DNA from: an uncultured Thermodesulfobacteriota bacterium
GTDB lineage: Bacteria > Desulfobacterota > B13-G15
Reading direction: 5' to 3'
Length of the DNA stretch: 64,000 nucleotides
NCBI GenBank assembly: GCA_964543765.1
Contig: CAZIZI010000001.1
Span: forward strand, 170,475-234,474
In this document: piece by piece, positions 2,839-45,749 of the stretch
How the letters are laid out: each line of letters starts with the position of its first letter
Position numbering within the stretch: position 1 is the stretch's first letter
Translations under genes and position numbers: made by a program
Notes under the pieces: generated by a model
Database searches by the model: none
What the model saw: the letters and a program-made list of their open reading frames with translations, nothing else
What the model was told of the DNA's origin: nothing

Positions 2839-2859
2839 CTCAAACAAAGGGGGTTAAAA

Positions 2860-3105
2860 ATGGCTGAATATGATATCTTTATCAATAAGAACTTTGAGGA
2901 CTTAAAGGACGAAGAGGAAATAGTAGGAGTTATAAGGGATCTTAGTCCTGGAAAAAAGAAGTACAAGTGTCTATGCGCCAAATTGATCATCTCGAAGGAT
3001 CCTGATAAATACCCGGATAGACTCTGGGTAAGGCTCGGAAGAGGACAACTCGTTAAGGATCATCCTTGTTCGGTAAAGATAGTGGAGATATTGAAACCTT
3101 ATTGA
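2860..3105 (+). CDS. small (81 aa) hypothetical protein embedded between UbiD paralogs
   Basis: ORF with RBS GGGGG upstream, tightly spaced between ubiD-1 stop and ubiD-2 start (2-nt gap); no recognisable motif. Confidence 0.4.
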   Translation: MAEYDIFINKNFEDLKDEEEIVGVIRDLSPGKKKYKCLCAKLIISKDPDKYPDRLWVRLGRGQLVKDHPCSVKIVEILKPY

Positions 3106-3106
3106 G

Positions 3107-4393: not shown

Positions 4394-4395
4394 AT

Positions 4396-7342: not shown

Positions 7343-7344
7343 AA

Positions 7345-8343
7345 ATGGACGAAAGGAGTTTAAAGGACAAGCAAATAGAGATTTGTCTCAAAGAAAAAGT
7401 TGAGGATGAAGGTGATAATGGTTTTGATTTTTTTAAATTAGAGTATCAAATTCCAGATTTTTCTTTTGAGGAAATAGATATTTCTTTAGAATTGTTAGGG
7501 AAAAAATTAAGTTTTCCCTTGATTATTGCTCCTTTAACTGGGGGAGGACATAAGTCATTAGAGATCAATAAACGATTAGCTGAAGCTGCCGAGATTATGG
7601 GCATAGGGATGGCTCTTGGTTCTCAGAAGTTAATGGTTAAGTATCCGGAGTTGAAGGTTACGTATTATGTAAGGGATGTGGCTCCTTCCATATTGTTATT
7701 CAGTAACTTGGGCTTAGTGCATCTTAATTATGGAATAGGGTATGATGAGTGTATGTATGTGGTTGAGGAAGTGGGGGCAGATGGTCTTATGTTGTATGTA
7801 AATCCGTTGCAGGAGGTATTTCAAGAGAATGGAATGGTGAATTTTAGTGGAATTTTGAGGAAGTTAGAGGATCTTTGTAAGCGTTTTCCTTATCCTATTG
7901 TGATAAAAGAAATAGGGTATGGGATATCGCGTGATTTCATGTTGAAGTTAAAGGGGGTCGGAATATGGGGTATTGATGTGGCGGGACGAGGGGGTACAAA
8001 TTGGGTAAAGATTGAGTGTTTGCTTAGATCAAAAGAGGTACCCGCAGGTTTTGAAGAAATGGGCGTTTCTACTGCTTTGGCCCTTAAGGAGGCTTCTGAG
8101 ATTATAAAAGATAAAGCGATTTTTGCCTCTGGAGGCATAAGAAAGGGCAGCGAGATAGCTAAAGCCATTGCTTTAGGAGCAAAGGCGGTGAGTATAGGGC
8201 TTCCTTTTCTCAGATGGGCTTCTCAAGGCGTTGAAGCGATACTTAAAGGAGTGGAGACCCTAAAGGAAGAACTGCGATTTTGGATGTGGTATACTGGATC
8301 TAAGGATCTTAAGTCTCTTCAAGGAAAGATAAGGGAAAAATGA
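7345..8343 (+). CDS. fni: type 2 (FMN-dependent) isopentenyl-diphosphate delta-isomerase
   Basis: MDERSLKDKQIEICLK...FPLIIAPLTGGGHKSLEINKRLAEAAEIMGIGMALGSQ aligns with IDI-2 (Fni) N-terminus including the GGG loop; start placed at ATG 7345 right after the previous stop (ORF-track start 7291 overlaps the upstream gene). Confidence 0.85.
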   Translation: MDERSLKDKQIEICLKEKVEDEGDNGFDFFKLEYQIPDFSFEEIDISLELLGKKLSFPLIIAPLTGGGHKSLEINKRLAEAAEIMGIGMALGSQKLMVKYPELKVTYYVRDVAPSILLFSNLGLVHLNYGIGYDECMYVVEEVGADGLMLYVNPLQEVFQENGMVNFSGILRKLEDLCKRFPYPIVIKEIGYGISRDFMLKLKGVGIWGIDVAGRGGTNWVKIECLLRSKEVPAGFEEMGVSTALALKEASEIIKDKAIFASGGIRKGSEIAKAIALGAKAVSIGLPFLRWASQGVEAILKGVETLKEELRFWMWYTGSKDLKSLQGKIREK

Positions 8344-10253: not shown

Positions 10254-10273
10254 GCTTCGGCATGCAAGTTGCT
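10254..10273 (+). promoter_or_regulatory. candidate sigma54 (-24/-12) promoter upstream of the GcvH-like / HybA-NrfD-c3 / two-component operon
   Basis: cGGCATgcaagTTGCTt matches TGGCAC-N5-TTGCW at GG (10259-60), CA, and TTGC with exact 12-nt GG-to-GC spacing; lies ~40 nt upstream of the first ORF start; an NtrC-type sigma54 activator is encoded in the same gene string. Confidence 0.3.
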
Positions 10274-10311
10274 TTTAAATAAGTGGACTTTATAAAAAGG
10301 AGGTGAAAGAG

Positions 10312-10521
10312 ATGGCAGCAGTAAAGATAGCGATACTTATAGCGGTGGGAGTTTTGGCCATAGGTTTTGTAGGGCTTGTGATCTTTTATCCTTTGCTGAA
10401 GACGCTTCAGGGTTGGCTTGAGGGCTTTAAGGTTTGGGCTTTTGGAAAAGAGGTGCCTGTTGAAGTGGGTTTAACCATAGCTGATGGAGGTGAAGAGGCT
10501 AAAGAGAATAAGGAAGAATAA
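10312..10521 (+). CDS. small single-pass membrane protein (hypothetical)
   Basis: ATG 10312 follows GGAGGTG RBS; AAVKIAILIAVGVLAIGFVGLVIFYPLL hydrophobic helix then acidic tail. Confidence 0.45.
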   Translation: MAAVKIAILIAVGVLAIGFVGLVIFYPLLKTLQGWLEGFKVWAFGKEVPVEVGLTIADGGEEAKENKEE

Positions 10522-10537
10522 GTAAGGAGTTAAAAAG

Positions 10538-11464
10538 ATGGAGAGGTTTCTGAACAAAAAGTGTCCATTCCTTGGGGAGGAGAAAGTGCTTATTTGTAGG
10601 GCATTTCCTCTTAAAAAGCCCATTCCCCTGGATAAAGTTTATGCCCAGGAGAACTTTTGCCTAAAAGGCAATTACCAGAAATGTCCCGTATATCAAGAGG
10701 TGGCAAAAGAAAAGGAGAAAAGCCCTCATGGAGTATGTCCCTTTGTGGAAGTTGAAAACGTGAGTTTTTGTAAGCTGTTTCCGGCTAAGAAACTCTCTGT
10801 TTCGGGTGTTTATGAGCTCGGAAACCCTTGTACTACTGAGAGGCATCAAGAGTGCATTCTGTTTCTTACAGTTAGTAAAGGTGATCTAAGTTTATCAACG
10901 GAAGGAAGGCCTTATGTGGATTCTAACCGTCAATATCTAAAGGGACATTTTTGGATCAAAGAGGAAAGTGAAGGATTTAAAGTAGGCCTTGATGATTTCG
11001 CCCAGTTTTTGCTCGGTTCCATAAAAAGAATCACTTTACCTCCGGAAGGAACCATCCTGAAAATAGGAGAAGAGTTTTTAACGCTTGAAACCGAAAAAGG
11101 CACTTTTCAATTGCTTTCCCCTTTGGAGGGCGAAGTACGAAGACTCAACCTTGAACTTCTCGAGCATCCTGGCCTTTTAAATGAAGAACCCTATGGGAAG
11201 GGTTGGATTTTGATCATGAAAATTTCTGGTATTCCACTTACTTTAATGTCCCCTGAAGAAGCGAAGCAAGAGCTTTCCCATAAGTTACAATGGCTTTCGA
11301 GGTTCTTGGGTTCGGAAGACACAATGGCAGATGGAGGGGAGATAACATTCGAAAGCCTTAAAACATTAGATCGTGAAAAACAGAGGGTTTTGATCGAGGA
11401 ATTGCTTTTAAAAGAAATTAGGAAGGAGGTAAAGGATGGAGCTTTATCAGTATCAATGGGTTGA
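10538..11464 (+). CDS. GcvH-like (lipoyl-carrier-type) domain protein with N-terminal duplicated 4-Cys motif
   Basis: C-terminal GHFWIKEESEGFKVGLDDFAQFLLG...LETEKGTFQLLSPLEGEV mirrors GcvH (GITDFAQ..LG; ESVKA...SPVSGEV) with the Lys retained; N-terminal has two ~45-aa repeats CPF..(9-10)..C..(19)..C..(7)..C. Confidence 0.6.
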   Translation: MERFLNKKCPFLGEEKVLICRAFPLKKPIPLDKVYAQENFCLKGNYQKCPVYQEVAKEKEKSPHGVCPFVEVENVSFCKLFPAKKLSVSGVYELGNPCTTERHQECILFLTVSKGDLSLSTEGRPYVDSNRQYLKGHFWIKEESEGFKVGLDDFAQFLLGSIKRITLPPEGTILKIGEEFLTLETEKGTFQLLSPLEGEVRRLNLELLEHPGLLNEEPYGKGWILIMKISGIPLTLMSPEEAKQELSHKLQWLSRFLGSEDTMADGGEITFESLKTLDREKQRVLIEELLLKEIRKEVKDGALSVSMG

Positions 11465-12134
11465 TTTCTTCGCCACCAAGGGTCTCAAGTATCTGTTGAT
11501 CTTGGGCTTTTGGCTTGCCCTTTTCCCCTTCTGGAGGCTCCTTATGGGACCAGTTGGCAGAGTTTCCCTTCTTGTTTCCAGGGCCATAGAGGCGCTTTAT
11601 GGATGGTTCAACTTCCCCCAGACTCTTTACTACCATCAGGGTCACACTTGGGCAAAGGTGGAGGATGGTTTGGTAAAGGTGGGGCTTGATGACTTCGCTC
11701 AGAAGCTTTTGGGAAGGCCCGATGCCATAGAACTTCCCCTTATCGGAGGAAAGGTCAGACAAGGCGATATAGGTTGGAGGATAAGGATAGAGGAGAAGAT
11801 CTTAGAGATGCTTTCTCCGGTAAGTGGAGAGGTTTTGGCCATAAACAAGAAGGTCCTTGAGGATCCAAGTCTAATCCTTAAGGATCCCTATGGAGAGGGA
11901 TGGCTTTTGAAGATTAAGCCCGATAACCCTAAGGTTGACCTTCGGAACCTCCTTAAGGGTGAGGCCTTGAAGGGATGGATCCAAGGGACCCTTGATAGGT
12001 TAAGGGAGAGGCTTGGGGGAGAGCTTGGGCTTATGTATCAAGACGGTGGTCTTCCGGTGAACGGATTTGTCCGAATGATAGATCCCCAAAACTGGGACCA
12101 AATAGCAAGGGAATTCTTAATACCTGAGGGATAA
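11436..12134 (+). CDS. membrane-anchored GcvH-like (lipoyl-carrier-type) domain protein
   Basis: N-terminal TM helix LKYLLILGFWLALFPFW; then HQGHTWAKVEDGLVKVGLDDFAQKLLG...IEEKILEMLSPVSGEV (GcvH fold signature, Lys retained). Confidence 0.6.
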   Translation: MELYQYQWVDFFATKGLKYLLILGFWLALFPFWRLLMGPVGRVSLLVSRAIEALYGWFNFPQTLYYHQGHTWAKVEDGLVKVGLDDFAQKLLGRPDAIELPLIGGKVRQGDIGWRIRIEEKILEMLSPVSGEVLAINKKVLEDPSLILKDPYGEGWLLKIKPDNPKVDLRNLLKGEALKGWIQGTLDRLRERLGGELGLMYQDGGLPVNGFVRMIDPQNWDQIAREFLIPEG

Positions 12135-12283: not shown

Positions 12284-13126
12284 ATGAACAGAAGGGACTT
12301 TTTAAAAGCTTTAGGGATAGGGTTAATAAGCATTGGTGTTCGGCCTATTTTGGGTAGAGCGGAGAACGAAGAGTTTACGGAGTTTATGGGAATCCTGGTG
12401 GATACAACTCGGTGTATAGGATGTAGGGCTTGTGAAGCGGCTTGTGCCGAGAGTCACGGCCTTCCCGTTCTTGATATAAATGATACCAGCGTGTTTAAAA
12501 CCCCAAGAAAACCTTCTACCCAGCAACTGACAGTGGTCAATCGTTTTGAAACGGAAAAGGGAGAGGTATTTGTCAAAACCCAATGCATGCATTGTAATCA
12601 ACCCGCTTGTGTGGCAGCTTGTTTGGTTAAGGCTTTTAAAAAACAACCGAGTGGCCCTGTTACCTGGGATAAAAACTGCATAGGTTGTAGGTTTTGCATG
12701 TACAGTTGTCCATTTGACGTTCCAAAATTTGAATATGAAAAGGCCATTCCAGAAATAAAGAAATGTGACCTCTGTTGGGATCGTTTAAAGAAGGGTATGA
12801 TTCCCGCTTGTGTAGAAGCCTGTCCCCAGGAGGCTTTGATATTTGGTAAAAGAAGGGATCTTATCCATGAAGCAAAAACAAGAATTTATAAGGATCCCGA
12901 CAGATATTATCACCATATTTACGGTGAAAATGAAGTGGGGGGCACATCTTATTTATATCTTTCTAAAGTGCCTTTTGAACAAATTGGATTCCGTACCGAT
13001 TTGGGTTATACCCCTTACCCTGAATATGCAAAGATATTCATAGAAAGTGACGATCTCGTGTACATATTATGGCCCGTTGGCATGTGGTTGGTATATGAAC
13101 TCACTAAAAAAGGAGGTAGCCAATGA
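12284..13126 (+). CDS. Tat-exported 4x[4Fe-4S] ferredoxin-type subunit (HybA/HmcB/DsrO/PsrB-like)
   Basis: Twin-arginine signal MNRRDFLKALGIGLISIGVRPILGRA; four Cys clusters (CIGCRACEAAC, CMHCNQPACVAAC, CIGCRFCMYSCP, CDLCWDR...CVEACP); start ATG 12284 after GGGGG. Confidence 0.8.
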   Translation: MNRRDFLKALGIGLISIGVRPILGRAENEEFTEFMGILVDTTRCIGCRACEAACAESHGLPVLDINDTSVFKTPRKPSTQQLTVVNRFETEKGEVFVKTQCMHCNQPACVAACLVKAFKKQPSGPVTWDKNCIGCRFCMYSCPFDVPKFEYEKAIPEIKKCDLCWDRLKKGMIPACVEACPQEALIFGKRRDLIHEAKTRIYKDPDRYYHHIYGENEVGGTSYLYLSKVPFEQIGFRTDLGYTPYPEYAKIFIESDDLVYILWPVGMWLVYELTKKGGSQ

Positions 13127-13204
13127 GCCAGAGAAGGAAAGAAGTAATAAGCTTTATATTTATCCGAACTTAAACCCAAAGGCCCGATCTTTACCCCATT
13201 TAAT

Positions 13205-14320
13205 ATGATAACAGCTCCTATCATTCTTATAGGATTAATCATAATTGCCATTAGGTTTTTTAAAGGACTAGGAGCAGTAACAAACCTTTCCCAAGAATTC
13301 CCATGGGGTTTGTGGATAGCTTTCGATGTAATGACAGGGGTTCCTTGGGCCGGTGGGGCTTTCTGTTTATGCTTTGTAGTGTACGTGGCACACTTTGAAA
13401 AATACAAGCCCATCTTGAGGGCTGCTATCCTTTCAGGGCTTTTAGGATATTCTTTTTACGCTGGAGCGTTAGTGCTTGATTTAGGTAGATGGTGGAATGC
13501 TTTTAATCCATTTATAGGAAATAAATTCGGATTTCAATCAGCTCTATGGTTGGTGGCCATCCATTTCTTACTATATACGATCTGTGAATTTATTGAGTTT
13601 TTACCTGTAGTAGCAGAGTGGTTAAACTTCCAGAGATTTAAACAATTTTTGCATTCAATTGCCTTGCCGGTTGTTATCTTGGGCATTACTTTGTCAACTC
13701 TTCACCAAGCTGGATTAGGAGCATTAGCGTTAATGGCGAAAGGTAAAATTCATCCTTTGTGGTGGTCAGAATTTACACCGGTTTTATTTTTCCTCCAAAG
13801 TATATTCGGAGGAATTGCTATGGTTATATTTGAGGGTTCTATAACACATAGAGTATTTAGTTATCGCATTCCCGAAGAAATACATGAAAAGCATTATTCT
13901 ATATTAATTGGATTGGCAAGAGGATGTGCGGGAGCCTTGTTTGCATATTTGGTTTTGAAAATTTTAATGTTCATTCATGTATACGGATGGAATTATGTCA
14001 TCTCAAAAATGGGAATATGGTATCTTATTGAGGTTATTGGTTTTGGTTTTTTACCTCTTTTTATGCTCGTTTCGGGAGTAAGGAATGAAGCTATAAATTT
14101 GATAAAAATTGCAGCATTAATGGCCATGATAGGTGTGGCAATATCTCGATTTAATTACGTGTTTATAGCTTATAAATGGTATTTACCTTTGAGCGAAAGG
14201 TATTTCCCCAGCTGGATGGAGATTTGGGTGACAGCTACCGTCGTTTTGGCTGAGATATGGGTTCTCAGATGGATAATAAACCGTATGCCTGTATATGCGG
14301 TTGAGAAGGAAGAGGAATGA
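13205..14320 (+). CDS. NrfD/PsrC-family integral membrane quinone-interacting subunit (HybB/HmcC/DsrP-like)
   Basis: 371 aa, ~10 predicted TM helices, typical NrfD-family length and hydrophobicity; immediately follows the HybA-like gene. Confidence 0.7.
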   Translation: MITAPIILIGLIIIAIRFFKGLGAVTNLSQEFPWGLWIAFDVMTGVPWAGGAFCLCFVVYVAHFEKYKPILRAAILSGLLGYSFYAGALVLDLGRWWNAFNPFIGNKFGFQSALWLVAIHFLLYTICEFIEFLPVVAEWLNFQRFKQFLHSIALPVVILGITLSTLHQAGLGALALMAKGKIHPLWWSEFTPVLFFLQSIFGGIAMVIFEGSITHRVFSYRIPEEIHEKHYSILIGLARGCAGALFAYLVLKILMFIHVYGWNYVISKMGIWYLIEVIGFGFLPLFMLVSGVRNEAINLIKIAALMAMIGVAISRFNYVFIAYKWYLPLSERYFPSWMEIWVTATVVLAEIWVLRWIINRMPVYAVEKEEE

Positions 14321-14333
14321 AGGGGGTGTGGAA

Positions 14334-14697
14334 ATGGGGCGTACGTCTGTTATTATTTTTGCAGTTATAATGGTAGCGACAGGGGGTTTTGGGTTTAGAT
14401 GTTATAAAAATTGACATCTTGAAAAACCGTTATGAAGGTGTTGAGTTTACCCATGGGGCGCACGTCGATTATGTGGGTGATTGTTCGCGATGTCATCATT
14501 TCAGCCAGGAACAAGTTAGATGCACAACTTGCCATGAGATTATCAAAGTTTATACTTACAAAGGAAGCAAAAGAGGTGCAGGTATTGGCCTCAAGGGCGC
14601 TTATCATGGTCTTTGTCTTGGGTGCCATAGGGAAATGGGAGGGCCCATTGGGTGTGAAGATTGCCATGTGCGAAAGAGGGTGAATCAGACGAGATGA
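14334..14697 (+). CDS. tetraheme cytochrome c3-type protein; signal peptide (ATG 14334) and heme domain (ORF 14389-14697) in different frames: frameshift/indel in a G5T4G3T3 run
   Basis: Frame of 14334: MGRTSVIIFAVIMVATGGFGF then stop at 14412; other frame: four CxxCH (CSRCH, CTTCH, CLGCH, CEDCH) plus His ligands; removing one base near 14385-14395 joins a Sec signal peptide to the heme domain. Confidence 0.6.
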
Positions 14698-16283
14698 GAT
14701 TTAAGTGGAAAGAGAGCTTAAGCTTTAAATTAATCATATGGGTTAGCACGGTAACCACTATTGCAATAGGGGGATTAACTTACGTTAATCTTCAAACAAA
14801 AAAGAAATATCTTATGGAAGAAGTAACCTCGCGTACTGAGCAATTAAGTGATGTGATAGTGCGAGGTCTTTGGTATGATATGTTGCACAATTACCGCGAT
14901 GCTTTATATCACTCGATAAAAGTAATAGGTGAACAAGAAGGTATAGTAAGAGTAAGAATTTTTAACAAAGAGGGCATTATCACCTATTCTTCGGATCGCA
15001 CTGAAATAGGCCATCAAGTAGATATGAAAGCTGAAGCGTGCTATGTTTGCCATGCGAGGGATAAACCTCTGGAGAGGTTAGATCTTCCAAAACGTACCCG
15101 CATTTTTAAGACTCCTCAGGGGCGAGTTCATGGGATGATAACGCCAATTTATAATGAGCCAGCTTGTTGGCAAGCTCCTTGTCACGCGCATCCGCCGGAA
15201 AAAACAGTTTTGGGAGTTCTTGACGTGGTGCTTTCCTTGAACAAGACCGACGAACGGATAAAACGCTTATTTTACAGGACTGTCCCATGGGCTGGGGTTA
15301 CCGTGGTTTTAATCTCGGTGATAATAAGCCTTTTCTTACGCGAATACGTTTATAAACCCACAAAAAGACTTTTAGAAGGGACAAAAAGGATTGCCGAGGG
15401 AGATTTTGATTATCGCATTCCTGTAACGTCGAAGGACGAATTAGGTGAGTTAACATTGGCTTTTAATGCGATGGCTAAAAGATTAAAGGAGGCAAATTTA
15501 GAGATAAAGGAACTGGTGGAGACATTGGAGACAAAAGTACAAGAAAGGACAAGGGAACTCGAGGAGATTCATAAGCAACTGTTACAAACAGAAAAACTCG
15601 CTGCCTTAGGAAAACTTGCTGCAAGTGTAGCTCACGAGATAAATAATCCATTAAGTGGAGTACTTACTTACATAAGATTAATGCAGAAAAAGCTTAATCA
15701 AACTGATGATCATGTATATTCTAAATTCAATCAATACCTTTCAACAATGGAAAGGGAAATTGAACGTTGTAGTACTATTGTGAAAAATCTTCTTGATTTT
15801 GCTCGAAAGAGGGAACCAAGTTTAAAAGAAGGCGTGGATATTAATGAGGTAATTGAGGAAACTGTAAAGCTAATTTCTAATAGGTTAAGTTTGCAAAACA
15901 TATATCTTGAAAAAGATTTGGGAGAACTTCCTCCTATTGTTGGTGATCCTGCGCAATTGCGTCAAGCTTTTTTAAATCTTATAATAAATGCTGCTGAAGC
16001 GATTCAAGACTCAACAGGTAAGATTACCGTAAGGACACGATATTTGCCCGATGAGAAAATGGTGATGGTGGAGATTTCTGATACTGGCGTAGGTATAAAA
16101 GAAGAGAATCTCAACAAGATTTTCGATCCGTTTTTTACCACAAAGGAAAAGGGCACGGGATTGGGGTTATCGGTGGTTTACGGTATAATAAGTGCTCATA
16201 AAGGACATATTTCAGTGAAGAGCAAAGTGGGTGAAGGGACGACTTTTACTATAAAACTACCGCTTGGGTTTAATGAGGCATGA
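14694..16283 (+). CDS. sensor histidine kinase with periplasmic heme-c-motif sensor domain, HAMP, HisKA, HATPase
   Basis: TM1 LIIWVSTVTTIAIGGL, periplasmic region with CYVCH and CWQAPCH (CxxCH and Cx4CH), TM2 VPWAGVTVVLISVIISLFL, HAMP, H-box AHEINNPL, N/G boxes (LIINAAEA, DTGVGI, GTGLGL); ATGA overlap with the c3 gene. Confidence 0.8.
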   Translation: MRFKWKESLSFKLIIWVSTVTTIAIGGLTYVNLQTKKKYLMEEVTSRTEQLSDVIVRGLWYDMLHNYRDALYHSIKVIGEQEGIVRVRIFNKEGIITYSSDRTEIGHQVDMKAEACYVCHARDKPLERLDLPKRTRIFKTPQGRVHGMITPIYNEPACWQAPCHAHPPEKTVLGVLDVVLSLNKTDERIKRLFYRTVPWAGVTVVLISVIISLFLREYVYKPTKRLLEGTKRIAEGDFDYRIPVTSKDELGELTLAFNAMAKRLKEANLEIKELVETLETKVQERTRELEEIHKQLLQTEKLAALGKLAASVAHEINNPLSGVLTYIRLMQKKLNQTDDHVYSKFNQYLSTMEREIERCSTIVKNLLDFARKREPSLKEGVDINEVIEETVKLISNRLSLQNIYLEKDLGELPPIVGDPAQLRQAFLNLIINAAEAIQDSTGKITVRTRYLPDEKMVMVEISDTGVGIKEENLNKIFDPFFTTKEKGTGLGLSVVYGIISAHKGHISVKSKVGEGTTFTIKLPLGFNEA

Positions 16284-17635
16284 AAGAAAAGGTTAACATA
16301 CTGGTTGTAGACGATGAGGAGATCGTCAGGGAGTCGCTTGTAGAATGGTTAAGGGAAGAGGGATATAATGCGGAGGCTGCGGAAGACGCTTTTAAGGCCC
16401 TTGAAAAAATCAAGGAACGGAATTGGGACATAGCTCTTGTGGACCTCAAGATGCCCAAAATGGATGGTTTGGAGCTTTTGGAAAGAATCAAAAAGGAGAG
16501 TCCAGATACACAGGTCATTATATTTACCGCTTATGCCACGGTTCATACGGCCGTTCAAGCTATAAAAAAGGGGGCTTACGATTACTTGGTTAAGCCATTG
16601 GATCCGGAGGAGGTTTCGCTTTTAATAGAGCGACTTTTAAAGAGTCAAGAGCTTTTAAAAGAGGTTTCCTTTTTAAGGAAAGAGCTTACCAAACAATATC
16701 GATTTCACGATCTGGTGAGCAAAAGTCCCAAAATGCAGAAGATTTTTGAGCTTGCTCGTACGGTTGCAAAAAGCAACTCCAATATCCTCATCCTTGGAGA
16801 GAGTGGGACGGGGAAAGAACTTTTGGCCAGAGCCATTCACAACGAAAGCCCTCGGGCGAATGGTCCTTTTGTGGCTGTTTCATGTGTGGCCATACCGGAT
16901 ACGCTTTTAGAAAGTGAGCTCTTTGGCCATGAGAAAGGCGCCTTTACCGATGCCATATCTCAGAAGAAGGGGAAGTTTGAGCTTGCTCACGGAGGTACCC
17001 TCTTTTTAGATGAGATAGGTGATATAAGCCCGAAGATGCAGCTTACCCTTTTGAGGGTATTGGAAGAGAAAGAATTTACCCGGGTTGGAGGCACAAAGCC
17101 CATAAAGGTGGATGTGAGGATCATCGCGGCTACTAATCGCGATTTACAAAAGGCAGTCCAAGAAGGACGCTTCCGCGATGACCTTTACTATAGGCTTAAT
17201 GTAATTACCATTCATTTACCGCCTTTAAGGGAACGTAAAGAGGATATCCCTCTTTTGGTTCAACATTTCATAGAGAAGTTTAACCTTCAGATGGGGAAGA
17301 AAGTAGAACGTATAAGTGACGAGGCTTTGAGAATGCTCATGCAATATGATTGGCCCGGTAACGTGAGGGAACTTGAAAATACCATCGAAAGGGCTATGGT
17401 AATTACTAAGGGAAAGGCGATAACGCCTGAAGATATTGAAATTCCAAGCCTTCAGAAGAACTTCCCTACGGAGGAAAGCGGAAAGACGCTTGAAGCTGTT
17501 GAAAGGGCGCACATTTTGAGGGTCCTAAACGAAACCGACTGGAATATCCAACGATCGGCCCAGATTCTGGGTATCGATAGGACTACTCTTTACAACAAGA
17601 TCAAGAAATACAACTTAAAAAAGCCCGAAGATTAA
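16280..17635 (+). CDS. sigma54-dependent response regulator (NtrC family: REC + AAA+ + Fis-type HTH)
   Basis: ILVVDDEE...DLKMP receiver; GESGTGKE Walker A; GAFTGA sigma54-interaction motif; C-terminal HTH ...RSAQILGIDRTTLYNKIKK; ATGA overlap with the kinase gene. Confidence 0.9.
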   Translation: MKEKVNILVVDDEEIVRESLVEWLREEGYNAEAAEDAFKALEKIKERNWDIALVDLKMPKMDGLELLERIKKESPDTQVIIFTAYATVHTAVQAIKKGAYDYLVKPLDPEEVSLLIERLLKSQELLKEVSFLRKELTKQYRFHDLVSKSPKMQKIFELARTVAKSNSNILILGESGTGKELLARAIHNESPRANGPFVAVSCVAIPDTLLESELFGHEKGAFTDAISQKKGKFELAHGGTLFLDEIGDISPKMQLTLLRVLEEKEFTRVGGTKPIKVDVRIIAATNRDLQKAVQEGRFRDDLYYRLNVITIHLPPLRERKEDIPLLVQHFIEKFNLQMGKKVERISDEALRMLMQYDWPGNVRELENTIERAMVITKGKAITPEDIEIPSLQKNFPTEESGKTLEAVERAHILRVLNETDWNIQRSAQILGIDRTTLYNKIKKYNLKKPED

Positions 17636-18240
17636 TCTTCATATCCCAAAATCATTGCCTTGAAGTGTGAGAAGAAAGTATGCCCGAGTGTGGCTAAGTA
17701 TATGTGGGCGATAACAAAGGCGAAGAAAGTATAGGCCAACAAGAGATGAACGGCCGCTATGACTTTGATTCCCCCGAGGAAGTTTATTACTTCCTTAAAA
17801 GTAAGGGGATCCCACAGGAATAAACCCGTGAGAATTTGGAGGGGCAACAGGAGGAACATAAGCATGAAGTAAATGATTTTTTGCAAAGAGTTAAACTTAT
17901 CGTCAGGTTTGGGCGTGAAAGGATGGGGTTCCCCAAAAAAATAACGAATAAAATAGTAATTGGCATAAATGGGAACCTTCTTAAGATCCTCCGAACGCGG
18001 TAAATAGACCTTCTGGAATTTCCCGGTGAGTACGTAATAGGCTCCAAGGATGAAGAAAGTAAAAAGTACTAAAAAACCACAAAAATTATGAACTTTAACG
18101 GATCCTTCAAATGAAAACATCTTAAGGGCTTCGGTAAAACGCATTTGAAAACCTGTAAAAATCAAAACCACAATACACACCGCATGTACCCAATGGCAAA
18201 TTCTTACCACTAAAGGATGCAATATTTCCCTCTTTCCCAT
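17632..18240 (-). CDS. membrane di-heme cytochrome b (Ni/Fe-hydrogenase b-type / cytochrome b561 PF01292-like)
   Basis: HPLVVRICHWVHAVCIVVLIFTGF and later His-containing TM helices typical of the PF01292 family; 4 TM; directly downstream of the multiheme cytochrome c gene. Confidence 0.65.
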   Translation of the reverse strand: MGKREILHPLVVRICHWVHAVCIVVLIFTGFQMRFTEALKMFSFEGSVKVHNFCGFLVLFTFFILGAYYVLTGKFQKVYLPRSEDLKKVPIYANYYFIRYFFGEPHPFTPKPDDKFNSLQKIIYFMLMFLLLPLQILTGLFLWDPLTFKEVINFLGGIKVIAAVHLLLAYTFFAFVIAHIYLATLGHTFFSHFKAMILGYED

Positions 18241-18241
18241 A

Positions 18242-19315
18242 TTACTCCTCCTCGTGTTTCTTACGCCATTTGATAGTTAAAATCCTCAATATCCCATGGA
18301 GGCCGACAAAAAGTATGGCTCCAATCAAGAATATGTATCCCAGTATATCAAGCCACCGCCATCCTATCTTAAATAGAACGCTTTCAAACTTTTCTGGTTC
18401 TTTTTCATTTATTAAGTCCTTCAAGTTTAGTAAAGTAAAACGATCGGAACCGATGGGATAAAAATTGAAGAGCCTCGTTAAGATGGAAGGATCCGCTTCC
18501 AAAGGACTTTCTTCATCTGAAAGGAGTAAAATGGGCCTTTTAGTTAATAATCTTGGCGAATGACAAGTGAGACAATCTTTTGCTTCTTCTTTGACTGCAT
18601 AATTATGAGAAACATTCAGCGGTAAAAGTTCTGCTTCAATTTTAACCTTCGCTCCTTCCTTTTTAAGTTTAGAAAGGTATGATTTAAATTCCTCATAACT
18701 CACAAATCCGTCGCCGTTAATGTCGACTTTTTTCCCTTTAGCGGTTTGCCCTTTTACAAATAAAAAAATCCTACTCTCACCTTCCGCATTATGACAAGCG
18801 GTGCAGGAAACTTTTTCTCCTAAGATATGTTTACAGTGGGGGTAACCTTTAGAAAGAAGCTCCTTTTTTTCGTGACAATTTAGACAGGGCAGGTTTCTAT
18901 CTTTAACCTGAACTTGGAGCGTAGGTTTAACGTAGTGAGGGTCATGACATTGATAACATAAGGCCGGATGGCCGCTTGATTCGTATGCTTCTGCTACCTC
19001 CTTGTGGCATAAACTACAGTCAACTCTTCCAAGCTTTTGAGGATGGGGAACATCTGATATGTCATTGTGACAATCCAAGCAATTAAATCCTCCGTGAGAA
19101 GAGGAGGCAAACCGCTTCGGATCTATGTAGAGGGAAGAAAGCCCTCGAGGCAATTCCTCTTTTTTTTCCGATGGGATTACCATTTGATTTCTTTCTTCTG
19201 GTGACATGGATAAGATTTCCGGTTTACCATGACACTCGAAGCAGGCCTCTTTTTCTAAGGCCGATGAAAAAAAGGGGAAACATAACAAAAATAAGAAAAT
19301 TACAAAGCTTCGCAT
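18242..19315 (-). CDS. membrane-anchored multiheme (7x CxxCH) cytochrome c with internal EF-hand-like motif
   Basis: Signal peptide MRSFVIFLFLLCFPFFSSA (ATG 19315 after GGGAG RBS); CFECH, CLDCH, CSLCH, CYQCH, CLNCH, CTACH, CLTCH; DINGDGFVSYEEF matches the EF-hand loop DxNxDGxxxxxE; C-terminal TM helix FLIGAILFVGLHGIL. Confidence 0.75.
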   Translation of the reverse strand: MRSFVIFLFLLCFPFFSSALEKEACFECHGKPEILSMSPEERNQMVIPSEKKEELPRGLSSLYIDPKRFASSSHGGFNCLDCHNDISDVPHPQKLGRVDCSLCHKEVAEAYESSGHPALCYQCHDPHYVKPTLQVQVKDRNLPCLNCHEKKELLSKGYPHCKHILGEKVSCTACHNAEGESRIFLFVKGQTAKGKKVDINGDGFVSYEEFKSYLSKLKKEGAKVKIEAELLPLNVSHNYAVKEEAKDCLTCHSPRLLTKRPILLLSDEESPLEADPSILTRLFNFYPIGSDRFTLLNLKDLINEKEPEKFESVLFKIGWRWLDILGYIFLIGAILFVGLHGILRILTIKWRKKHEEE

Positions 19316-19382
19316 ACCCTTACTCCCGCTAAGGATTAGATTAGCGATGAATTTTGAAACACAAAAATTACCCCTTGTCAAG

Positions 19383-19625
19383 CTACAAGGTGATAACTAT
19401 CGCTCCAAAAGGACATTCCGTCACACAAGTGTAACAACCATGACAACGGCTTGAATCTAGGGAGGGGATTTCGCCTGGATCCAGTTGGATCAAGGCCTTA
19501 CTCTTACAAGCTTTAAGGGCGAGACATTTCTTACAAGCTTTACATAAAGCTGGATCTACCCGAGGCGGCTTATGGGCTTGAAGGTTAATGCTTCCCATCG
19601 ATTTATAGGGCATAAATACCCACAA
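19383..19625 (-). CDS. 2x[4Fe-4S] ferredoxin
   Basis: CKACKKC...C and CHGCYTCVTECP cluster motifs; 80 aa. Confidence 0.7.
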   Translation of the reverse strand: MWVFMPYKSMGSINLQAHKPPRVDPALCKACKKCLALKACKSKALIQLDPGEIPSLDSSRCHGCYTCVTECPFGAIVITL

Positions 19626-19684
19626 GCCCCCTTCTAACGCAAGGGGGCTTGGGGGACCCTTGGTTGAACTTAGCCCTAATCCAC

Positions 19685-19900
19685 TTATTTGCTCTCGGGA
19701 GCCTTTTGGGTTGCGGGTGCTTGAGTCTGGTTCTCGGCAGGGGCAGGCTGTGTTTGATTTTCAGAAGGAGCCGGAGCAGGTGCCGTGACGTTTTCAGAAG
19801 GAGCCGGAGCAGGTGCTTCCTCTTTTTTCTTACACCCATATCCAAAACCTATTGCACCAGCCAGGATAAGACTCAATACAATGCCCCCTACTTTTTTCAT
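19685..19900 (-). CDS. small lipoprotein with Pro/Ala-rich repeat linker
   Basis: Signal peptide plus lipobox GFGYGC, then APAPAPSEN(V/Q)T repeats encoded by a ~33-bp tandem DNA repeat. Confidence 0.55.
   Translation of the reverse strand: MKKVGGIVLSLILAGAIGFGYGCKKKEEAPAPAPSENVTAPAPAPSENQTQPAPAENQTQAPATQKAPESK
19757..19816. repeat. tandem direct repeat (2 copies, ~33 bp: ttttcagaaggagccggagcaggtgc) inside the lipoprotein gene
   Basis: Exact 26-nt core repeated at ~19757 and ~19791; encodes the PAPAPSEN repeat. Confidence 0.7.
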
Positions 19901-19938: not shown

Positions 19939-19979
19939 ATCATATGTCCTATTTAAGATAAGTGTCAAGAGGGTTGACT
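19939..19979. promoter_or_regulatory. divergent sigma70-like promoter region (minus-strand TTGACA-18-TATGAT for the lipoprotein/cytochrome operon; plus-strand TTGACT for mltD)
   Basis: Minus strand: TTGACA (19968-19963) and TATGAT (19944-19939); plus strand TTGACT at 19974-19979 followed by TAAAT ~17 nt downstream. Confidence 0.3.
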
Positions 19980-26373: not shown

Positions 26374-28203
26374 ATGGTTGAACTTCGAGGCAGGAAAAAA
26401 AGTGGTTTTTTGACTCACGTGGTAAAGAAGCAGAGGTTTCAACTTGAGGACGTGGATAAACCCGAGTTGTTTAAAGACATATTTCCCTATGAAGAGATCT
26501 GTAGAACCGTATTCGATCATCGGGTTGAGCTTATTGATCCTCCCGACGAGATTTTCATCACGGATACCACCTTTAGAGATGGTCAACAATCAAGGCCTCC
26601 TTACACGGTAGAACAGATGGTAGACCTTTACAAGTTCCTATACCGCCTTGGAGGAGCAGCTGGAGTGATCCGTCAGACCGAGTTTTTCATCTATACCAAA
26701 AGGGACCGGGAGGCGGTAGAGAGATGTCTTGAGCTTGGTTACAAGTATCCGGAGATAACGGGATGGATAAGGGCTAACAAGGAAGACCTGAAGCTGGTAA
26801 AGGAAATGGGCTTAAAGGAGACGGGGATTCTCACTTCCGTTTCGGATTATCACATCTTTCTTAAGCTTGGCAAAAACCGCCGTACGGCTTTGATTGATTA
26901 CTTAAGGGTTGTAGAGGCGGCTCTTGAACATGGAATAAGGCCAAGATGCCATTTTGAGGATGTCACTAGGGCTGATATTTACGGATTTGTGATCCCCTTT
27001 GCTCAAGAGTTAATGAGGCTTTCTGAGGAGAGCGGTATTCCAATAAAGATTCGCCTTTGTGATACCTTAGGCGTAGGGGTTCCTTATCCTGGGACGGTTC
27101 TACCTCGAAGTGTTCCTAAACTGGTCAGGGCCATGGTGGATGAAGCAGGGGTTCCTTCTGAACAGCTTGAGTGGCATGGTCATAACGATTTTTATAAAGC
27201 TTTGATCAATGGAGTTACCGCTTGGCTTTACGGCTGTTCGGCCGTAAACGGAACCCTTTTGGGTATTGGTGAGAGGACGGGCAATACCCCTATTGAGGCC
27301 TTGATAATAGAATACATAAGCCTCACCGGTAACCATCACGGCATTGATACCACCGTAATTACCGATATAAAGAATTATTATGAATACGTAATAGGAGAAA
27401 GAATCCCTAAAAACCAGCCCTTTGTAGGTGCCGAGTTTAACCTTACAAGTGCGGGTATCCATATAGACGGTCTCATAAAGAATGAGGAGATTTATAATAG
27501 CTTTGACACCGAAAAGATCCTTAAGAGGCCTATTGCTATAGCCATTAACGATAAATCGGGAACCGCTGGTATTGCTTATTGGATAAACTCTTACTTCGCT
27601 TTGCCGCCCGAAAAGCGGGTCGATAAACGACATCCCGGAGTTGTAAAGGTTTATAAATGGGTTAAAGAGCAATATGAAAAGGGACGTACCACCAACATTT
27701 CATCTGAAGAATTGGAACGAAAGGTCAGAAAGTATCTGCCTGAGCTTTTCGTTTCCGATTTCGATCGGATAAAACGAAGAGCTTACGAAATGGCTGCCCA
27801 TTTGGCGGAAAAACTTGTGGAGCATCCCGAGATACGCTCAATGGATCCGAAGCGTCAAGAACTCTTGTTGGCCAAAGTGCTTGAGGAGTATCCATTTATA
27901 CAATTCCTTTACGTGGTGAATTTAGAGGGCAAAAAGGTCACTCGCAATATTTGCCATCCGGAAGATAGGGCCAAATACGAAGTGATAGGGCTTGATGAGG
28001 ACTTCTCAAATAGGGATTGGTTCATCGAACCCCTTAAGTCAGGAAAGGTTTATATCTCAAACTTCTATACCTCCAGAATAACCGGTGCCCTATGTATAAC
28101 GGTTTCGGCTCCTATAAGGAACGAGGAGGAGGAGATCGTGGGTATTTTAGGGATGGATTTGAGGTTTGAAGAACTCGTCAAGGTGGAAGAAGAGGAAGTA
28201 TGA
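26374..28203 (+). CDS. DRE-TIM metallolyase (HMGL/LeuA-like, isopropylmalate/citramalate/Re-citrate-synthase family) fused to a C-terminal Cache-like sensory domain
   Basis: FITDTTFRDGQQS; CDTLG; HGHNDFYKALINGV; GIGERTGNTPIEALI (LeuA/HMGL catalytic motifs); C-terminal KVYISNFYTSRITGALCITVSAPIRNEEEEIVGILGMDLRFEEL resembles a Cache/PAS-like ligand-binding module. Confidence 0.6.
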   Translation: MVELRGRKKSGFLTHVVKKQRFQLEDVDKPELFKDIFPYEEICRTVFDHRVELIDPPDEIFITDTTFRDGQQSRPPYTVEQMVDLYKFLYRLGGAAGVIRQTEFFIYTKRDREAVERCLELGYKYPEITGWIRANKEDLKLVKEMGLKETGILTSVSDYHIFLKLGKNRRTALIDYLRVVEAALEHGIRPRCHFEDVTRADIYGFVIPFAQELMRLSEESGIPIKIRLCDTLGVGVPYPGTVLPRSVPKLVRAMVDEAGVPSEQLEWHGHNDFYKALINGVTAWLYGCSAVNGTLLGIGERTGNTPIEALIIEYISLTGNHHGIDTTVITDIKNYYEYVIGERIPKNQPFVGAEFNLTSAGIHIDGLIKNEEIYNSFDTEKILKRPIAIAINDKSGTAGIAYWINSYFALPPEKRVDKRHPGVVKVYKWVKEQYEKGRTTNISSEELERKVRKYLPELFVSDFDRIKRRAYEMAAHLAEKLVEHPEIRSMDPKRQELLLAKVLEEYPFIQFLYVVNLEGKKVTRNICHPEDRAKYEVIGLDEDFSNRDWFIEPLKSGKVYISNFYTSRITGALCITVSAPIRNEEEEIVGILGMDLRFEELVKVEEEEV

Positions 28204-42853: not shown

Positions 42854-42926
42854 AGAAATCCAGAAGCGCATTTACCCTGAAGAGGAGGTGGTAGTAAGAT
42901 GAACCGGCCACAGACGAAGGGAAACA

Positions 42927-43907: not shown

Positions 43908-43934
43908 ATGAACTCCTCAGCTCCAATGAGAAGG

Positions 43935-44261: not shown

Positions 44262-44266
44262 AGTAA

Positions 44267-44619: not shown

Positions 44620-44642
44620 CTGGAAAGGGAGGCGGAGAACCG

Positions 44643-45703: not shown

Positions 45704-45749
45704 AAGAAGCCCAAGCCCAAACGGAAGCAGAACTTAAAAGAGCTCTCCG

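What the first reader, a model, noticed from the sequence alone, without database searches (positions are those of the whole stretch)
17632..19900. Convergent operon: lipoprotein, ferredoxin, membrane-anchored 7-heme cytochrome c with an EF-hand motif, and cytochrome b
The multiheme cytochrome has seven CxxCH, an N-terminal signal peptide, a C-terminal TM anchor and an internal DINGDGFVSYEEF sequence. That sequence matches the canonical EF-hand Ca-binding loop (DxNxDGxxxxxE), which is rare in multiheme cytochromes. It is followed by a PF01292-type di-heme cytochrome b, a pairing reminiscent of hydrogenase or formate-dehydrogenase cyt b partners, but with no catalytic subunit here. This may be a quinol:periplasmic-acceptor or extracellular electron-transfer module, and it is a likely target of the adjacent two-component system.
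Basis: partly seen in the sequence, partly recalled or inferred. Interest (0 to 1): 0.5.

Follow-up and report, generated by a model that had tools for sequence, protein, structure and literature searches.

The report
CbcBA-like cytochrome pair with EF-hand loop
This is an uncultured Thermodesulfobacteriota bacterium's version of the Geobacter CbcBA membrane complex, which passes electrons between the quinone pool and periplasmic cytochromes; its calcium-type "EF-hand" loop is real but is an old trait of the whole protein family, not a peculiarity of this gene.

Summary
On the minus strand lie a 7-CxxCH cytochrome c (18242-19315), with a signal peptide and a C-terminal membrane helix, and a PF01292 dihaem cytochrome b (17632-18240).

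They are homologues of Geobacter sulfurreducens CbcA and CbcB: 26% identity (E 3e-34) and 41% (E 5e-51). The adjacent histidine kinase and sigma-54 regulator match the kinase/BccR pair beside Geobacter cbcBA (42% and 46% identity over the full length).

DINGDGFVSYEEF is a full PROSITE EF-hand match, found in 7e-4 of shuffles. It is conserved:
- in all close relatives;
- once per module in duplicated 13-haem proteins;
- in 115 of 120 Geobacter-type CbcA proteins, including the crystallised one (PDB 28pb);
- in 50 of 84 diverse family modules, where the four ligand positions are kept or lost together.

The AlphaFold model shows strand-loop-helix. There is no entering helix and no partner hand.

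The lipoprotein and ferredoxin occur only in this species-level clade. The lipoprotein gene has its own promoter and terminator.

No sigma-54 promoter precedes the cytochrome genes. One precedes the opposite HmcBC-c3-kinase-regulator operon.

Verdict: a new member of a known kind. The family-wide EF-hand loop is mentioned in no paper I could read.

The parts
18242..19315 (-). CbcA-like heptahaem cytochrome c, 357 aa from the ATG at 19315. The mechanical ORF extends to the TTG at 19381.
   Evidence: Seven CxxCH. It is 26% identical (E 3e-34) to G. sulfurreducens PCA CbcA, P0405, and hits PDB 28pb_A at E 7.6e-23.
19259..19315 (-). Sec-type signal peptide, MRSFVIFLFLLCFPFFSSA.
   Evidence: Read from the sequence. 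The N-terminal helix is residues 2-16 in the model. The cleavage site is inferred.
18686..18724 (-). EF-hand-like loop DINGDGFVSYEEF, residues 198-210. It lies between haem motif 6 (C171) and haem motif 7 (C248).
   Evidence: Conservation. Strand-loop-helix-strand at pLDDT 82-92.
18272..18352 (-). C-terminal membrane anchor helix of the cytochrome c. It carries a nearly invariant His (H340, codon 18298..18296) and a basic cytoplasmic tail.
   Evidence: H362 is invariant in A1 (the same residue, numbered on the 379-aa ORF) and H340 is nearly invariant in A2. Helix 307-356 in the model. A conserved His in the CbcA anchor is also noted by Joshi et al..
17632..18240 (-). CbcB-like dihaem cytochrome b, 202 aa with four TM helices.
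   Evidence: PF01292, E 3.6e-29. It is 41% identical (E 5e-51) to the Geobacter CbcB homologue. H16, H51, H165 and H179 are invariant across nine CbcB-like proteins.
19383..19598 (-). Small 2x[4Fe-4S] ferredoxin, about 71 aa. An accessory, lineage-specific gene with no signal peptide.
   Evidence: Fer4, E 1e-10. Found only in the window species and L013. The Cys residues are kept and changes are mostly synonymous. Not called by the public gene callers.
19685..19900 (-). 71-aa Pro/Ala/Gln-rich putative lipoprotein with an atypical GYGC lipobox. Accessory, and probably its own transcription unit.
   Evidence: Promoter and hairpin.
19939..19968 (-). Sigma-70-type promoter-like site: TTGACA, 18 nt, TATGAT.
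   Evidence: Matches 11 of 12 consensus positions. This is a consensus match only.
19624..19650 (-). GC-rich hairpin after the lipoprotein stop: AAGCCCCCTT-gcgttag-AAGGGGGCTT. Terminator-like.
   Evidence: Read from the sequence. The stem is conserved in L013 and is followed there by a T-rich run.
16280..17635 (+). BccR-like sigma-54-dependent response regulator. Its stop overlaps the cytochrome b stop within the palindrome GATTAATC.
   Evidence: Pfam Response_reg, Sigma54_activat and HTH_8. It is 46% identical over the full length to the Geobacter BccR homologue. The overlap is shown and recurs in relatives.
14694..16283 (+). Sensor histidine kinase. Its periplasmic domain carries CxxCH and Cx4CH haem-c motifs.
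   Evidence: It is 42% identical (E 6e-142) over the full length to the kinase beside Geobacter bccR, with both motifs conserved.
14389..14697 (+). Tetrahaem cytochrome c3-like protein, a candidate periplasmic partner.
   Evidence: PF02085, E 1.5e-10. Syntenic in all close relatives and in L017.
12284..14320 (+). HmcB-like periplasmic FeS protein (12284-13126, Tat-type MNRRDFLK) and HmcC/NrfD-like membrane protein (13205-14320). Together they form a second quinone-interacting module.
   Evidence: NCBIfam HmcB scores 329 bits (cut-off 420) and HmcC 341 bits (cut-off 550), both below cut-off. Synteny.
10258..10273 (+). Sigma-54-type -24/-12 element CGGCATGCAAGTTGCT, 39 nt upstream of the first gene (10312-10521) of the plus-strand operon that ends with the kinase and regulator.
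   Evidence: One of only two sites in 64 kb that score 10 or more of 12 with GG-N10-GC. The Geobacter cbcBA promoter reads TGGCATGCCGGGTGCA.

Best explanation
The two conserved genes encode a CbcBA-type inner-membrane complex that connects the menaquinone pool with periplasmic multihaem cytochromes.

Shown by homology:
- The cytochrome b (CbcB-like) has four membrane helices and four invariant histidines, enough for two b haems.
- The cytochrome c (CbcA-like) is exported. It carries seven c haems in the periplasm and is held at the membrane by a C-terminal helix with a conserved histidine, next to the cytochrome b.

Inferred:
- Electrons pass between menaquinol/menaquinone, the b haems, the seven c haems and soluble periplasmic cytochromes.
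- The partner here is plausibly the tetrahaem c3 encoded across the two-component genes.
- The direction of flow in this organism is not known.

The EF-hand-like loop:
- The 12-residue loop plus its exiting helix sit in a small strand-loop-helix-strand insert between haems 6 and 7.
- Most likely it binds one Ca2+ as a structural ion that fixes this insert. It is ancestral to the CbcA module and was secondarily lost in some branches.

Other genes:
- The kinase (with a periplasmic haem-c sensor domain) and the sigma-54 regulator are counterparts of the Geobacter kinase/BccR pair. They probably tie expression of this respiratory locus to periplasmic redox state.
- The lipoprotein and ferredoxin are later additions in a variable slot upstream.
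For: Homology to characterised CbcBA:
- PDB 28pb_A hits the window protein at E 7.6e-23.
- Its sequence falls in the 90% cluster that holds G. sulfurreducens PCA AAR33925.1.
- The surrounding Geobacter locus L077 reproduces the published cbc5/bccR gene order.
- A 2026 review lists a CbcA crystal structure.
- Pairwise matches: CbcA 26% (E 3e-34), CbcB 41% (E 5e-51), kinase 42% (E 6e-142), regulator 46% (E 1e-146).

Pairing: a PF01292 gene follows the cytochrome c in every homologous locus examined, and c-b fusions exist.

Haem ligands: four invariant His in the cytochrome b and a conserved His in the anchor.

EF loop:
- Full PS00018 match, seen in 7e-4 of shuffles.
- Ligand positions D198, G203 and E209 are invariant in close relatives; one search lists them as D220, G225 and E231 in 379-aa ORF numbering.
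- One loop per module in the 13-haem duplicates.
- 115 of 120 Geobacter-type homologues match PS00018.
- Among modules from 50%-identity cluster representatives, 37 of 84 match PS00018 in full and 50 of 84 keep all four core ligand positions.
- The ligand positions are kept or lost together: 50 modules have 4 of 4, 2 have 3 of 4 and 32 have 2 or fewer. Independence would predict 20, 35 and 29.
- The model is confident across this insert (pLDDT 82-92).
Against: - No biochemical data exist for this protein. Neither haem occupancy nor Ca2+ binding can be computed here.
- The loop has no entering helix in the model and no partner hand.
- Pfam EF-hand scores are below the gathering cut-off here (24.3 against 25.4) and well below it in Geobacter CbcA (16.7).
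- About 40% of diverse family modules have lost the ligand pattern, so the site is dispensable for the fold.
- No sigma-54 promoter lies upstream of the cytochrome genes, unlike Geobacter.
- The Geobacter downstream genes cbcCDE are absent.
- I could not read the paper describing the CbcA crystal structure, so I do not know whether a metal is seen at the loop.
Confidence: 0.75

Rival explanations
1. The complex is the same but runs in reverse. It takes electrons from reduced periplasmic cytochrome c3 (fed by periplasmic hydrogenase or formate dehydrogenase) and reduces menaquinone. It would then be an electron-input module like Qrc of sulfate reducers, not a quinol oxidase for extracellular acceptors.
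For: - The organism is an uncultured Thermodesulfobacteriota.
- The locus also encodes a c3-type tetrahaem cytochrome and an HmcBC-like module.
- Geobacter CbcA has a very low midpoint potential: -279 mV, with a window of -389 to -104 mV (review). From general knowledge, menaquinone lies near -75 mV, so electron flow from CbcA to menaquinone is downhill.
Against: - The only genetic evidence for the family comes from Geobacter, where it supports reduction of low-potential extracellular acceptors.
- No hydrogenase or formate dehydrogenase genes lie in the 64-kb window.
Confidence: 0.3
2. The EF-hand-like sequence binds no metal. It is a conserved tight turn plus amphipathic helix whose acidic residues serve folding or partner docking, and the PROSITE match only mimics a calcium site.
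For: - The hand is unpaired, lacks an entering helix and scores below the Pfam cut-offs.
- PS00018 is a short pattern with known false positives (general knowledge).
- Many family members have lost the pattern.
Against: - Positions 1, 3, 5 and 12, the Gly at position 6 and the hydrophobic residue at position 8 all follow the Ca2+-loop consensus in more than 100 divergent sequences.
- The four ligand positions decay together rather than independently, as expected for one binding site.
- The protein is periplasmic, where Ca2+ is available.
Confidence: 0.2
3. The loop is a regulatory calcium switch. Ca2+ occupancy changes the geometry or potentials of haems 6 and 7, or the contact with the cytochrome b, and so gates electron flow.
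For: - The loop lies between the sixth and seventh haem motifs, in the part of the chain nearest the membrane anchor.
- Ca2+-dependent activation is known in dihaem cytochrome c peroxidases (general knowledge).
Against: - No evidence here of conformational alternatives.
- Single EF-hand-like loops in bacterial exported proteins are usually structural (general knowledge).
- Several lineages have lost the loop and kept the module.
Confidence: 0.08
4. The cytochrome b is the orphaned membrane anchor of a thiosulfate/polysulfide reductase, hydrogenase or formate dehydrogenase whose catalytic genes lie elsewhere.
For: The best NCBIfam hits are PhsC, hydrogenase cytochrome b and FDH gamma.
Against: - All three scores are far below the family cut-offs: 109 against 204, 77 against 121.5, and 53 against 116.
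- The gene is invariably paired, and sometimes fused, with the heptahaem cytochrome across phyla.
- It is 41% identical to CbcB.
Confidence: 0.03

Closest known systems
Geobacter sulfurreducens CbcBA (Cbc5; GSU0593/GSU0594). Genetics: Joshi, Chan and Bond 2021. CbcA soluble-domain structure: PDB 28pb, Antunes et al. 2026.
   Same: - A seven-haem periplasmic cytochrome c with a C-terminal anchor helix carrying a conserved His.
- It is followed directly by a four-helix PF01292 dihaem cytochrome b.
- The EF-hand-type loop sits at the same position (DTNNDNYISLAEL against DINGDGFVSYEEF).
- A homologous haem-sensor kinase and sigma-54 regulator lie next door.
   Different: - Only 26% (c) and 41% (b) identity.
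- The roughly 25-residue segment that precedes the loop in Geobacter, and could form the entering helix, is missing here.
- The regulator is convergent and tail-overlapping rather than divergent.
- There is no sigma-54 promoter, no small response-regulator gene and no cbcCDE downstream.
- The kinase and regulator are co-transcribed with an HmcBC-c3 module.
Duplicated 12/13-haem CbcA-like proteins (P0011-P0017, P0025, P0026; Syntrophorhabdaceae locus L017)
   Same: The same module, the same C-terminal anchor and the same downstream cytochrome b. Each module carries its own EF-hand loop.
   Different: - Two modules in tandem (about 660 aa).
- The loop is preceded by a helix-like segment (for example DPDLVKMLDSDGNGFLEDREV).
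- The genomic neighbourhoods differ.
PF01292 anchors of respiratory enzymes (PhsC, HydC/HyaC, FdnI)
   Same: Four-helix dihaem cytochrome b fold family. The histidine pattern in helices 1, 2 and 4, spaced 14 residues apart in helix 4, matches.
   Different: Scores are below every equivalog cut-off, and there is no catalytic partner. The partner is a multihaem cytochrome c.
Canonical EF-hand calcium-binding proteins (PF00036, PS00018; for example Entamoeba CaBP1, calmodulin)
   Same: The 12-residue loop has the canonical ligand positions and is followed by an exiting helix. phmmer aligns it to the EhCaBP1 EF-hands.
   Different: It is single rather than paired, has no entering helix (a beta-strand instead), lies inside a periplasmic multihaem cytochrome, and scores just below the Pfam cut-off.

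Membership tests
CbcBA-type quinol:cytochrome c oxidoreductase (Geobacter Cbc5) | Periplasmic seven-CxxCH cytochrome c with a C-terminal transmembrane anchor | tested here: met
   Seven motifs, a signal peptide and a terminal helix at 307-356.
CbcBA-type quinol:cytochrome c oxidoreductase (Geobacter Cbc5) | Sequence homology of the cytochrome c to G. sulfurreducens CbcA over its whole length | tested here: met
   BLASTP gives 26% identity over 344 columns (E 3e-34) against P0405 (AAR33925.1). phmmer gives E 7.6e-23 against PDB 28pb_A.
CbcBA-type quinol:cytochrome c oxidoreductase (Geobacter Cbc5) | A four-helix PF01292 dihaem cytochrome b immediately downstream, homologous to CbcB | tested here: met
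   PF01292 at E 3.6e-29. It is 41% identical (E 5e-51) to the CbcB of Geobacter locus L077, with four invariant His.
CbcBA-type quinol:cytochrome c oxidoreductase (Geobacter Cbc5) | BccR-like sigma-54 response regulator (and its kinase) adjacent | tested here: met
   Regulator 46% and kinase 42% identical over the full length to the Geobacter neighbours. The linkage is conserved in relatives, but the orientation differs (convergent).
CbcBA-type quinol:cytochrome c oxidoreductase (Geobacter Cbc5) | Sigma-54 (-24/-12) promoter in front of the cbcBA operon | tested here: not met
   No GG-N10-GC lies within 700 nt upstream in the window. The same scan recovers TGGCATGCCGGGTGCA in the Geobacter locus.
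CbcBA-type quinol:cytochrome c oxidoreductase (Geobacter Cbc5) | Downstream cbcC (12-haem), cbcD and cbcE genes of the Cbc5 cluster | tested here: not met
   The cytochrome b gene abuts the convergent regulator gene. The Geobacter locus has all three. Complementation in Geobacter needed only cbcBA, so this is not a core feature.
CbcBA-type quinol:cytochrome c oxidoreductase (Geobacter Cbc5) | Required for respiration of acceptors below about -0.21 V | not testable with these tools
   This is a physiological phenotype known only from Geobacter mutants.
EF-hand (PF00036 / PROSITE PS00018) | 12-residue loop with oxygen ligands at positions 1, 3, 5 and 12, Gly at 6 and a hydrophobic residue at 8 | tested here: met
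   D-I-N-G-D-G-F-V-S-Y-E-E matches PS00018 in full. The same consensus appears across the family.
EF-hand (PF00036 / PROSITE PS00018) | Score at or above the Pfam gathering threshold | tested here: not met
   EF-hand_1 scores 24.3 bits against 25.4. EF-hand_5 scores 20.6 against 25.9.
EF-hand (PF00036 / PROSITE PS00018) | Helix-loop-helix, usually paired with a second hand | tested here: not met
   The model gives strand 181-189, the loop, then helix 207-219. There is no entering helix and only one loop in the protein.
EF-hand (PF00036 / PROSITE PS00018) | Binds Ca2+ | not testable with these tools
   No coordinates or ligands were available. PDB 28pb could not be inspected, and its paper is not in the library.
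Thiosulfate reductase PhsC, hydrogenase cytochrome b, or FDH gamma subunit | Score above the NCBIfam equivalog cut-off, with an adjacent catalytic subunit | tested here: not met
   Scores are 109 against 204, 77 against 121.5, and 53 against 116. No catalytic genes are adjacent.

The most novel reading that the evidence does not exclude
The EF-hand-type loop would be a functional Ca2+ site of CbcA-type quinol oxidoreductases in many phyla: duplicated with the module, and kept or lost as a unit. No paper I could read mentions it. Its occupancy would control the geometry between haems 6 and 7, or the contact with the cytochrome b. Electron flow through this very-low-potential respiratory branch would then depend on, or be tuned by, periplasmic calcium.
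Probability: 0.1. Interest if true: 0.65.

Novelty: new member of a known kind. Interest (0 to 1): 0.35.

Why it matters
CbcBA is used as a marker for extracellular electron transfer and for respiration near the thermodynamic limit. Three points follow from this locus.
- The complete module (haem-sensor kinase, BccR-like regulator, CbcA and CbcB) occurs in uncultured, probably hydrothermal Thermodesulfobacteriota, welded to an HmcBC-c3 module. This extends the module's range and suggests that the two quinone-linked systems work together.
- A calcium-type loop is ancestral to the CbcA module, and its ligand positions are kept or lost as a unit. This gives a concrete, cheap test: look for a metal in PDB 28pb, then mutate D1 and E12 of the loop.
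- The sigma-54 promoter sits in front of the regulator's own operon and not in front of cbcBA. The regulatory wiring therefore differs from Geobacter.

None of this changes the view of what the complex is.

Tried and rejected
- First AlphaFold run on a 19-sequence alignment gave a poor model (pLDDT 57.8). A 54-sequence alignment gave pLDDT 83.5.
- Model coordinates are not exposed, so I could not measure surface exposure or ligand geometry of the loop.
- The profile search of the word-indexed database with A2 did not reach Geobacter. I bridged the gap through the PDB hit and a search with the 28pb sequence.
- Sigma-54 promoter scans upstream of the cytochrome genes found nothing conserved, either in the window or in six relatives.
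- Two literature searches on 'CbcA' with EF-hand or calcium were swamped by the NMR term CBCA. Targeted searches found no paper linking EF-hands to multihaem cytochromes or to CbcA.
- The 2026 CbcA structure paper is not in the library.
- I considered and rejected the reading that the lipoprotein and ferredoxin are subunits of the complex. They are absent from all relatives beyond 91% identity, where an MFS transporter or nothing occupies the slot.

Full report
**What is in the sequence**

Four ORFs lie on the minus strand between 19900 and 17632:
- a 71-aa Pro/Ala/Gln-rich protein with a signal-like N-terminus and a GYGC box (19685-19900);
- a small ferredoxin (19383-19598, or up to 19625);
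- a cytochrome c with exactly seven CxxCH motifs (18242-19381 as a mechanical ORF);
- a 202-aa PF01292 cytochrome b (17632-18240; Pfam E 3.6e-29).

The cytochrome c most likely starts at the ATG at 19315, giving 357 aa. That start is preceded by a GGGAG/AAGGG ribosome-binding site, and the product equals database protein P0001. It then begins with a Sec-type signal peptide. It ends in a hydrophobic helix followed by KWRKKHEEE.

DINGDGFVSYEEF is encoded at 18724..18686.
- It satisfies every position of PROSITE PS00018.
- Pfam EF-hand_1 scores 24.3 bits against a 25.4-bit cut-off.
- phmmer against PDB sequences aligns it with EF-hands of Entamoeba CaBP1 (E 6.8e-6).
- Only 147 of 200,000 shuffles of the protein contain a PS00018 match.

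**What the gene pair is**

The best PDB sequence hit of the cytochrome c is 28pb_A, 'Cytochrome c', 278 aa (E 7.6e-23).
- The same chain matches a Desulfuromonadales homologue at E 2.4e-88.
- A search with its sequence lands in a 90%-identity cluster that contains G. sulfurreducens PCA AAR33925.1.
- A Geobacter contig carrying this protein (L077) has the published cbc5 neighbourhood (Joshi et al.). That neighbourhood is a kinase, a divergent sigma-54 regulator (BccR), two small ORFs, a receiver-only protein, CbcA, CbcB, the 12-haem CbcC, CbcD and CbcE.
- A 2026 review lists a crystal structure of CbcA from Antunes et al. 2026. It prints the code as '2BPB', which I take to be 28PB.

Pairwise comparisons of window against Geobacter:

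| Protein | Identity | E-value |
|---|---|---|
| CbcA | 26% over 344 columns | 3e-34 |
| CbcB | 41% | 5e-51 |
| Kinase | 42% over 523 residues | 6e-142 |
| Regulator vs BccR homologue | 46% | 1e-146 |

The kinase match covers the whole protein, including a periplasmic domain with conserved CxxCH and Cx4CH motifs.

In every homologous locus I fetched, a PF01292 gene directly follows the cytochrome c. Fused c-b proteins also exist, as Joshi et al. noted for Chloroflexi.

The cytochrome b keeps four invariant histidines: H16, H51, H165 and H179, the last two 14 residues apart. The anchor helix of the cytochrome c keeps one: H362 in A1, numbered on the 379-aa ORF, which is H340 in 357-aa numbering.

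NCBIfam hits to PhsC, hydrogenase cytochrome b and FDH gamma are all far below their cut-offs. The pair is therefore a member of the CbcBA family. 'No catalytic subunit' is the normal state of that family.

**Where it comes from**

The nearest species representative is an uncultured Thermodesulfobacteriota MAG, 91% identical. Other relatives at 42-52% identity come from Thermodesulfobacteriota MAGs, including a Guaymas 'Deltaproteobacteria' bin.

The window's own subfamily is small. A word-indexed search of 5.8 billion proteins found only 24 proteins at E <= 1e-3. The wider family is large:
- 885 proteins at E <= 1e-20 for Geobacter CbcA;
- 115 cluster representatives at E <= 1e-30 for the profile.

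**The EF-hand loop**

It fails to refute.
- In ten relatives at 36-83% identity, D198, G203 and E209 are invariant (listed as D220, G225 and E231 in 379-aa ORF numbering). The pattern D-x-[ND]-x-[DN]-G-x-[ILV]-x-x-x-E-[LFV] is kept.
- The duplicated 12/13-haem proteins carry one such loop in each module, always between the sixth and seventh haem motif of that module.
- Delta-proteobacterial and Desulfuromonadales CbcA proteins have DRNEDNYISLAEL and DGNEDNYISLTEL. The crystallised Geobacter protein has DTNNDNYISLAEL, aligned to the window's loop.
- 115 of 120 Geobacter-type homologues match PS00018 strictly.
- I took the modules from 50%-identity cluster representatives that cover these columns. 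Of 84, 37 match PS00018 in full and 50 keep all four core ligand positions. The column consensus is the textbook EF-hand loop.
- The four ligand positions are kept or lost together. Fifty modules have 4 of 4, two have 3 of 4 and 32 have two or fewer. Independence would predict 20, 35 and 29. This is as expected for one binding site. The sequences are related, so it is not a formal test.

Structure:
- With a 54-sequence alignment the AlphaFold model reaches pLDDT 83.5 and pTM 0.73.
- The segment folds as strand 181-189, loop, helix 207-219, strand 224-232, at pLDDT 82-92.
- There is no entering helix and no second hand.
- Relatives such as P0019 and the Geobacter protein have about 20-25 extra residues before the loop. 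In P0019 these read like an entering helix (DPDLVKML-DSDGNG...). The window's subfamily has deleted them.
- This is therefore a truncated, unpaired, EF-hand-like site in a periplasmic protein. The most economical reading is a structural Ca2+ site.
- I could not test metal binding or measure exposure, because no coordinates are exposed.
- Pfam scores for the loop are sub-threshold, and in Geobacter CbcA only 16.7 bits. That may explain why databases do not annotate it.
- Neither Joshi et al., the 2026 review, nor any full text I could search mentions calcium or an EF-hand in CbcA or in multihaem cytochromes. The structure paper itself is not held.

**The other two genes and the 'operon'**

The lipoprotein and ferredoxin are found only in the window's species and in the 91%-identical L013. 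In other relatives the slot between the SLT-LysM transglycosylase gene and the cytochrome holds an MFS transporter or nothing.

The ferredoxin is probably a real gene. All eight Cys are kept in L013, and I counted about 11 synonymous against 6 non-synonymous changes by hand from the alignment, while the region upstream of it has indels. It has no export signal and no evident ribosome-binding site, and public gene callers skipped it.

The lipoprotein gene has a near-consensus sigma-70-type promoter (11 of 12) and a conserved GC-rich hairpin after its stop. It is therefore likely to be a separate transcription unit.

**Regulation**

The regulator and cytochrome b genes converge, and their stop codons overlap in the palindrome GATTAATC. 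This tail-to-tail arrangement recurs in all close relatives.

Homology to the Geobacter kinase/BccR pair makes a functional link likely. However, no GG-N10-GC element lies within 700 nt upstream of the cytochrome c gene. The same scan recovers TGGCATGCCGGGTGCA 63 nt upstream of the first gene of the Geobacter operon.

The window's only nearby sigma-54-type site, CGGCATGCAAGTTGCT (10258-10273), lies 39 nt upstream of a 69-aa ORF. That ORF heads the plus-strand operon: two GcvH-like proteins, HmcB-like, HmcC-like, tetrahaem c3, kinase and regulator. The regulator therefore probably drives its own operon. Direct control of the cbcBA-like genes is not shown.

**Mechanism and direction**

By homology the complex links the menaquinone pool through two b haems and seven c haems to periplasmic carriers. 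The syntenic c3 is an obvious candidate partner.

Geobacter CbcA is very low-potential (-279 mV). In a Thermodesulfobacteriota bacterium that also has an HmcBC-c3 module, the complex could equally run from periplasmic cytochromes to menaquinone. I cannot decide the direction. The rest of the window is housekeeping and gives no physiological clue.

**Verdict**

This is a correct observation of an ordinary member of a known family (CbcBA), together with its conserved kinase/regulator pair. The EF-hand-like loop is genuine, ancient and family-wide, and probably binds Ca2+. It is not a peculiarity of this gene, and the existing crystal structure may already show it. Interest is modest.

Noticed in passing
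window 14694-16283 (+): The histidine kinase has a periplasmic domain with a CxxCH and a Cx4CH motif. Both are invariant in four relatives and conserved in the kinase beside Geobacter bccR (42% identity over the full length). This looks like a haem-c redox sensor paired with BccR-type regulators. The Geobacter paper I read does not discuss the kinase.
   Followed up: partly
window 10258-12134 (+): A sigma-54-type promoter (CGGCATGCAAGTTGCT) is followed by a 69-aa membrane protein and two GcvH-like proteins: 308 aa with Cys-rich N-terminal repeats, and 232 aa with an N-terminal hydrophobic segment. These head the HmcB/HmcC/c3/kinase/regulator operon. The arrangement is syntenic in all close relatives. 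The role of GcvH-like proteins next to an Hmc-like module is unexplained.
   Followed up: partly
L017:261-8111 (Syntrophorhabdaceae MAG): An HmcB/HmcC/c3 set (56-60% identical to the window's) again lies next to a CbcA-like (12-haem, duplicated) plus CbcB-like pair, in a different lineage and without the kinase/regulator between them. This suggests the two quinone-linked modules are functionally associated.
   Followed up: no
window 17632-17635: The convergent regulator and cytochrome b genes share overlapping stop codons in the palindrome GATTAATC. Both proteins end in -ED. The 4-nt overlap recurs in relatives whose cytochrome c is only 42-52% identical.
   Followed up: partly
window 1384-8343 (+): A cluster of three UbiD-family decarboxylase paralogues, a UbiX-like flavoprotein, a CTP-dependent riboflavin kinase fused to a HAD hydrolase, and an FMN-dependent dehydrogenase. 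It looks like a prenylated-FMN decarboxylase locus with its own flavin supply.
   Followed up: no
window 40225-47571: The type I restriction-modification genes look fragmented: an HsdR-like protein of 420 aa plus a separate 204-aa EcoEI_R_C piece, and an HsdM of only 326 aa. About 3.6 kb (43907-47571) then follows with no ORF of 180 aa or more.
   Followed up: no
window 26374-28203 (+): An unusual fusion: an HMGL-like (pyruvate carboxyltransferase-type) domain followed by a dCache/MCP-like PDC sensor domain in one 609-aa protein.
   Followed up: no
P0048, P0061, P0067, P0080: Natural fusions of a seven-haem CbcA-like domain to a CbcB-like cytochrome b (545-597 aa) keep a strict EF-hand loop. 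The site is therefore retained even when the two subunits are one polypeptide.
   Followed up: no
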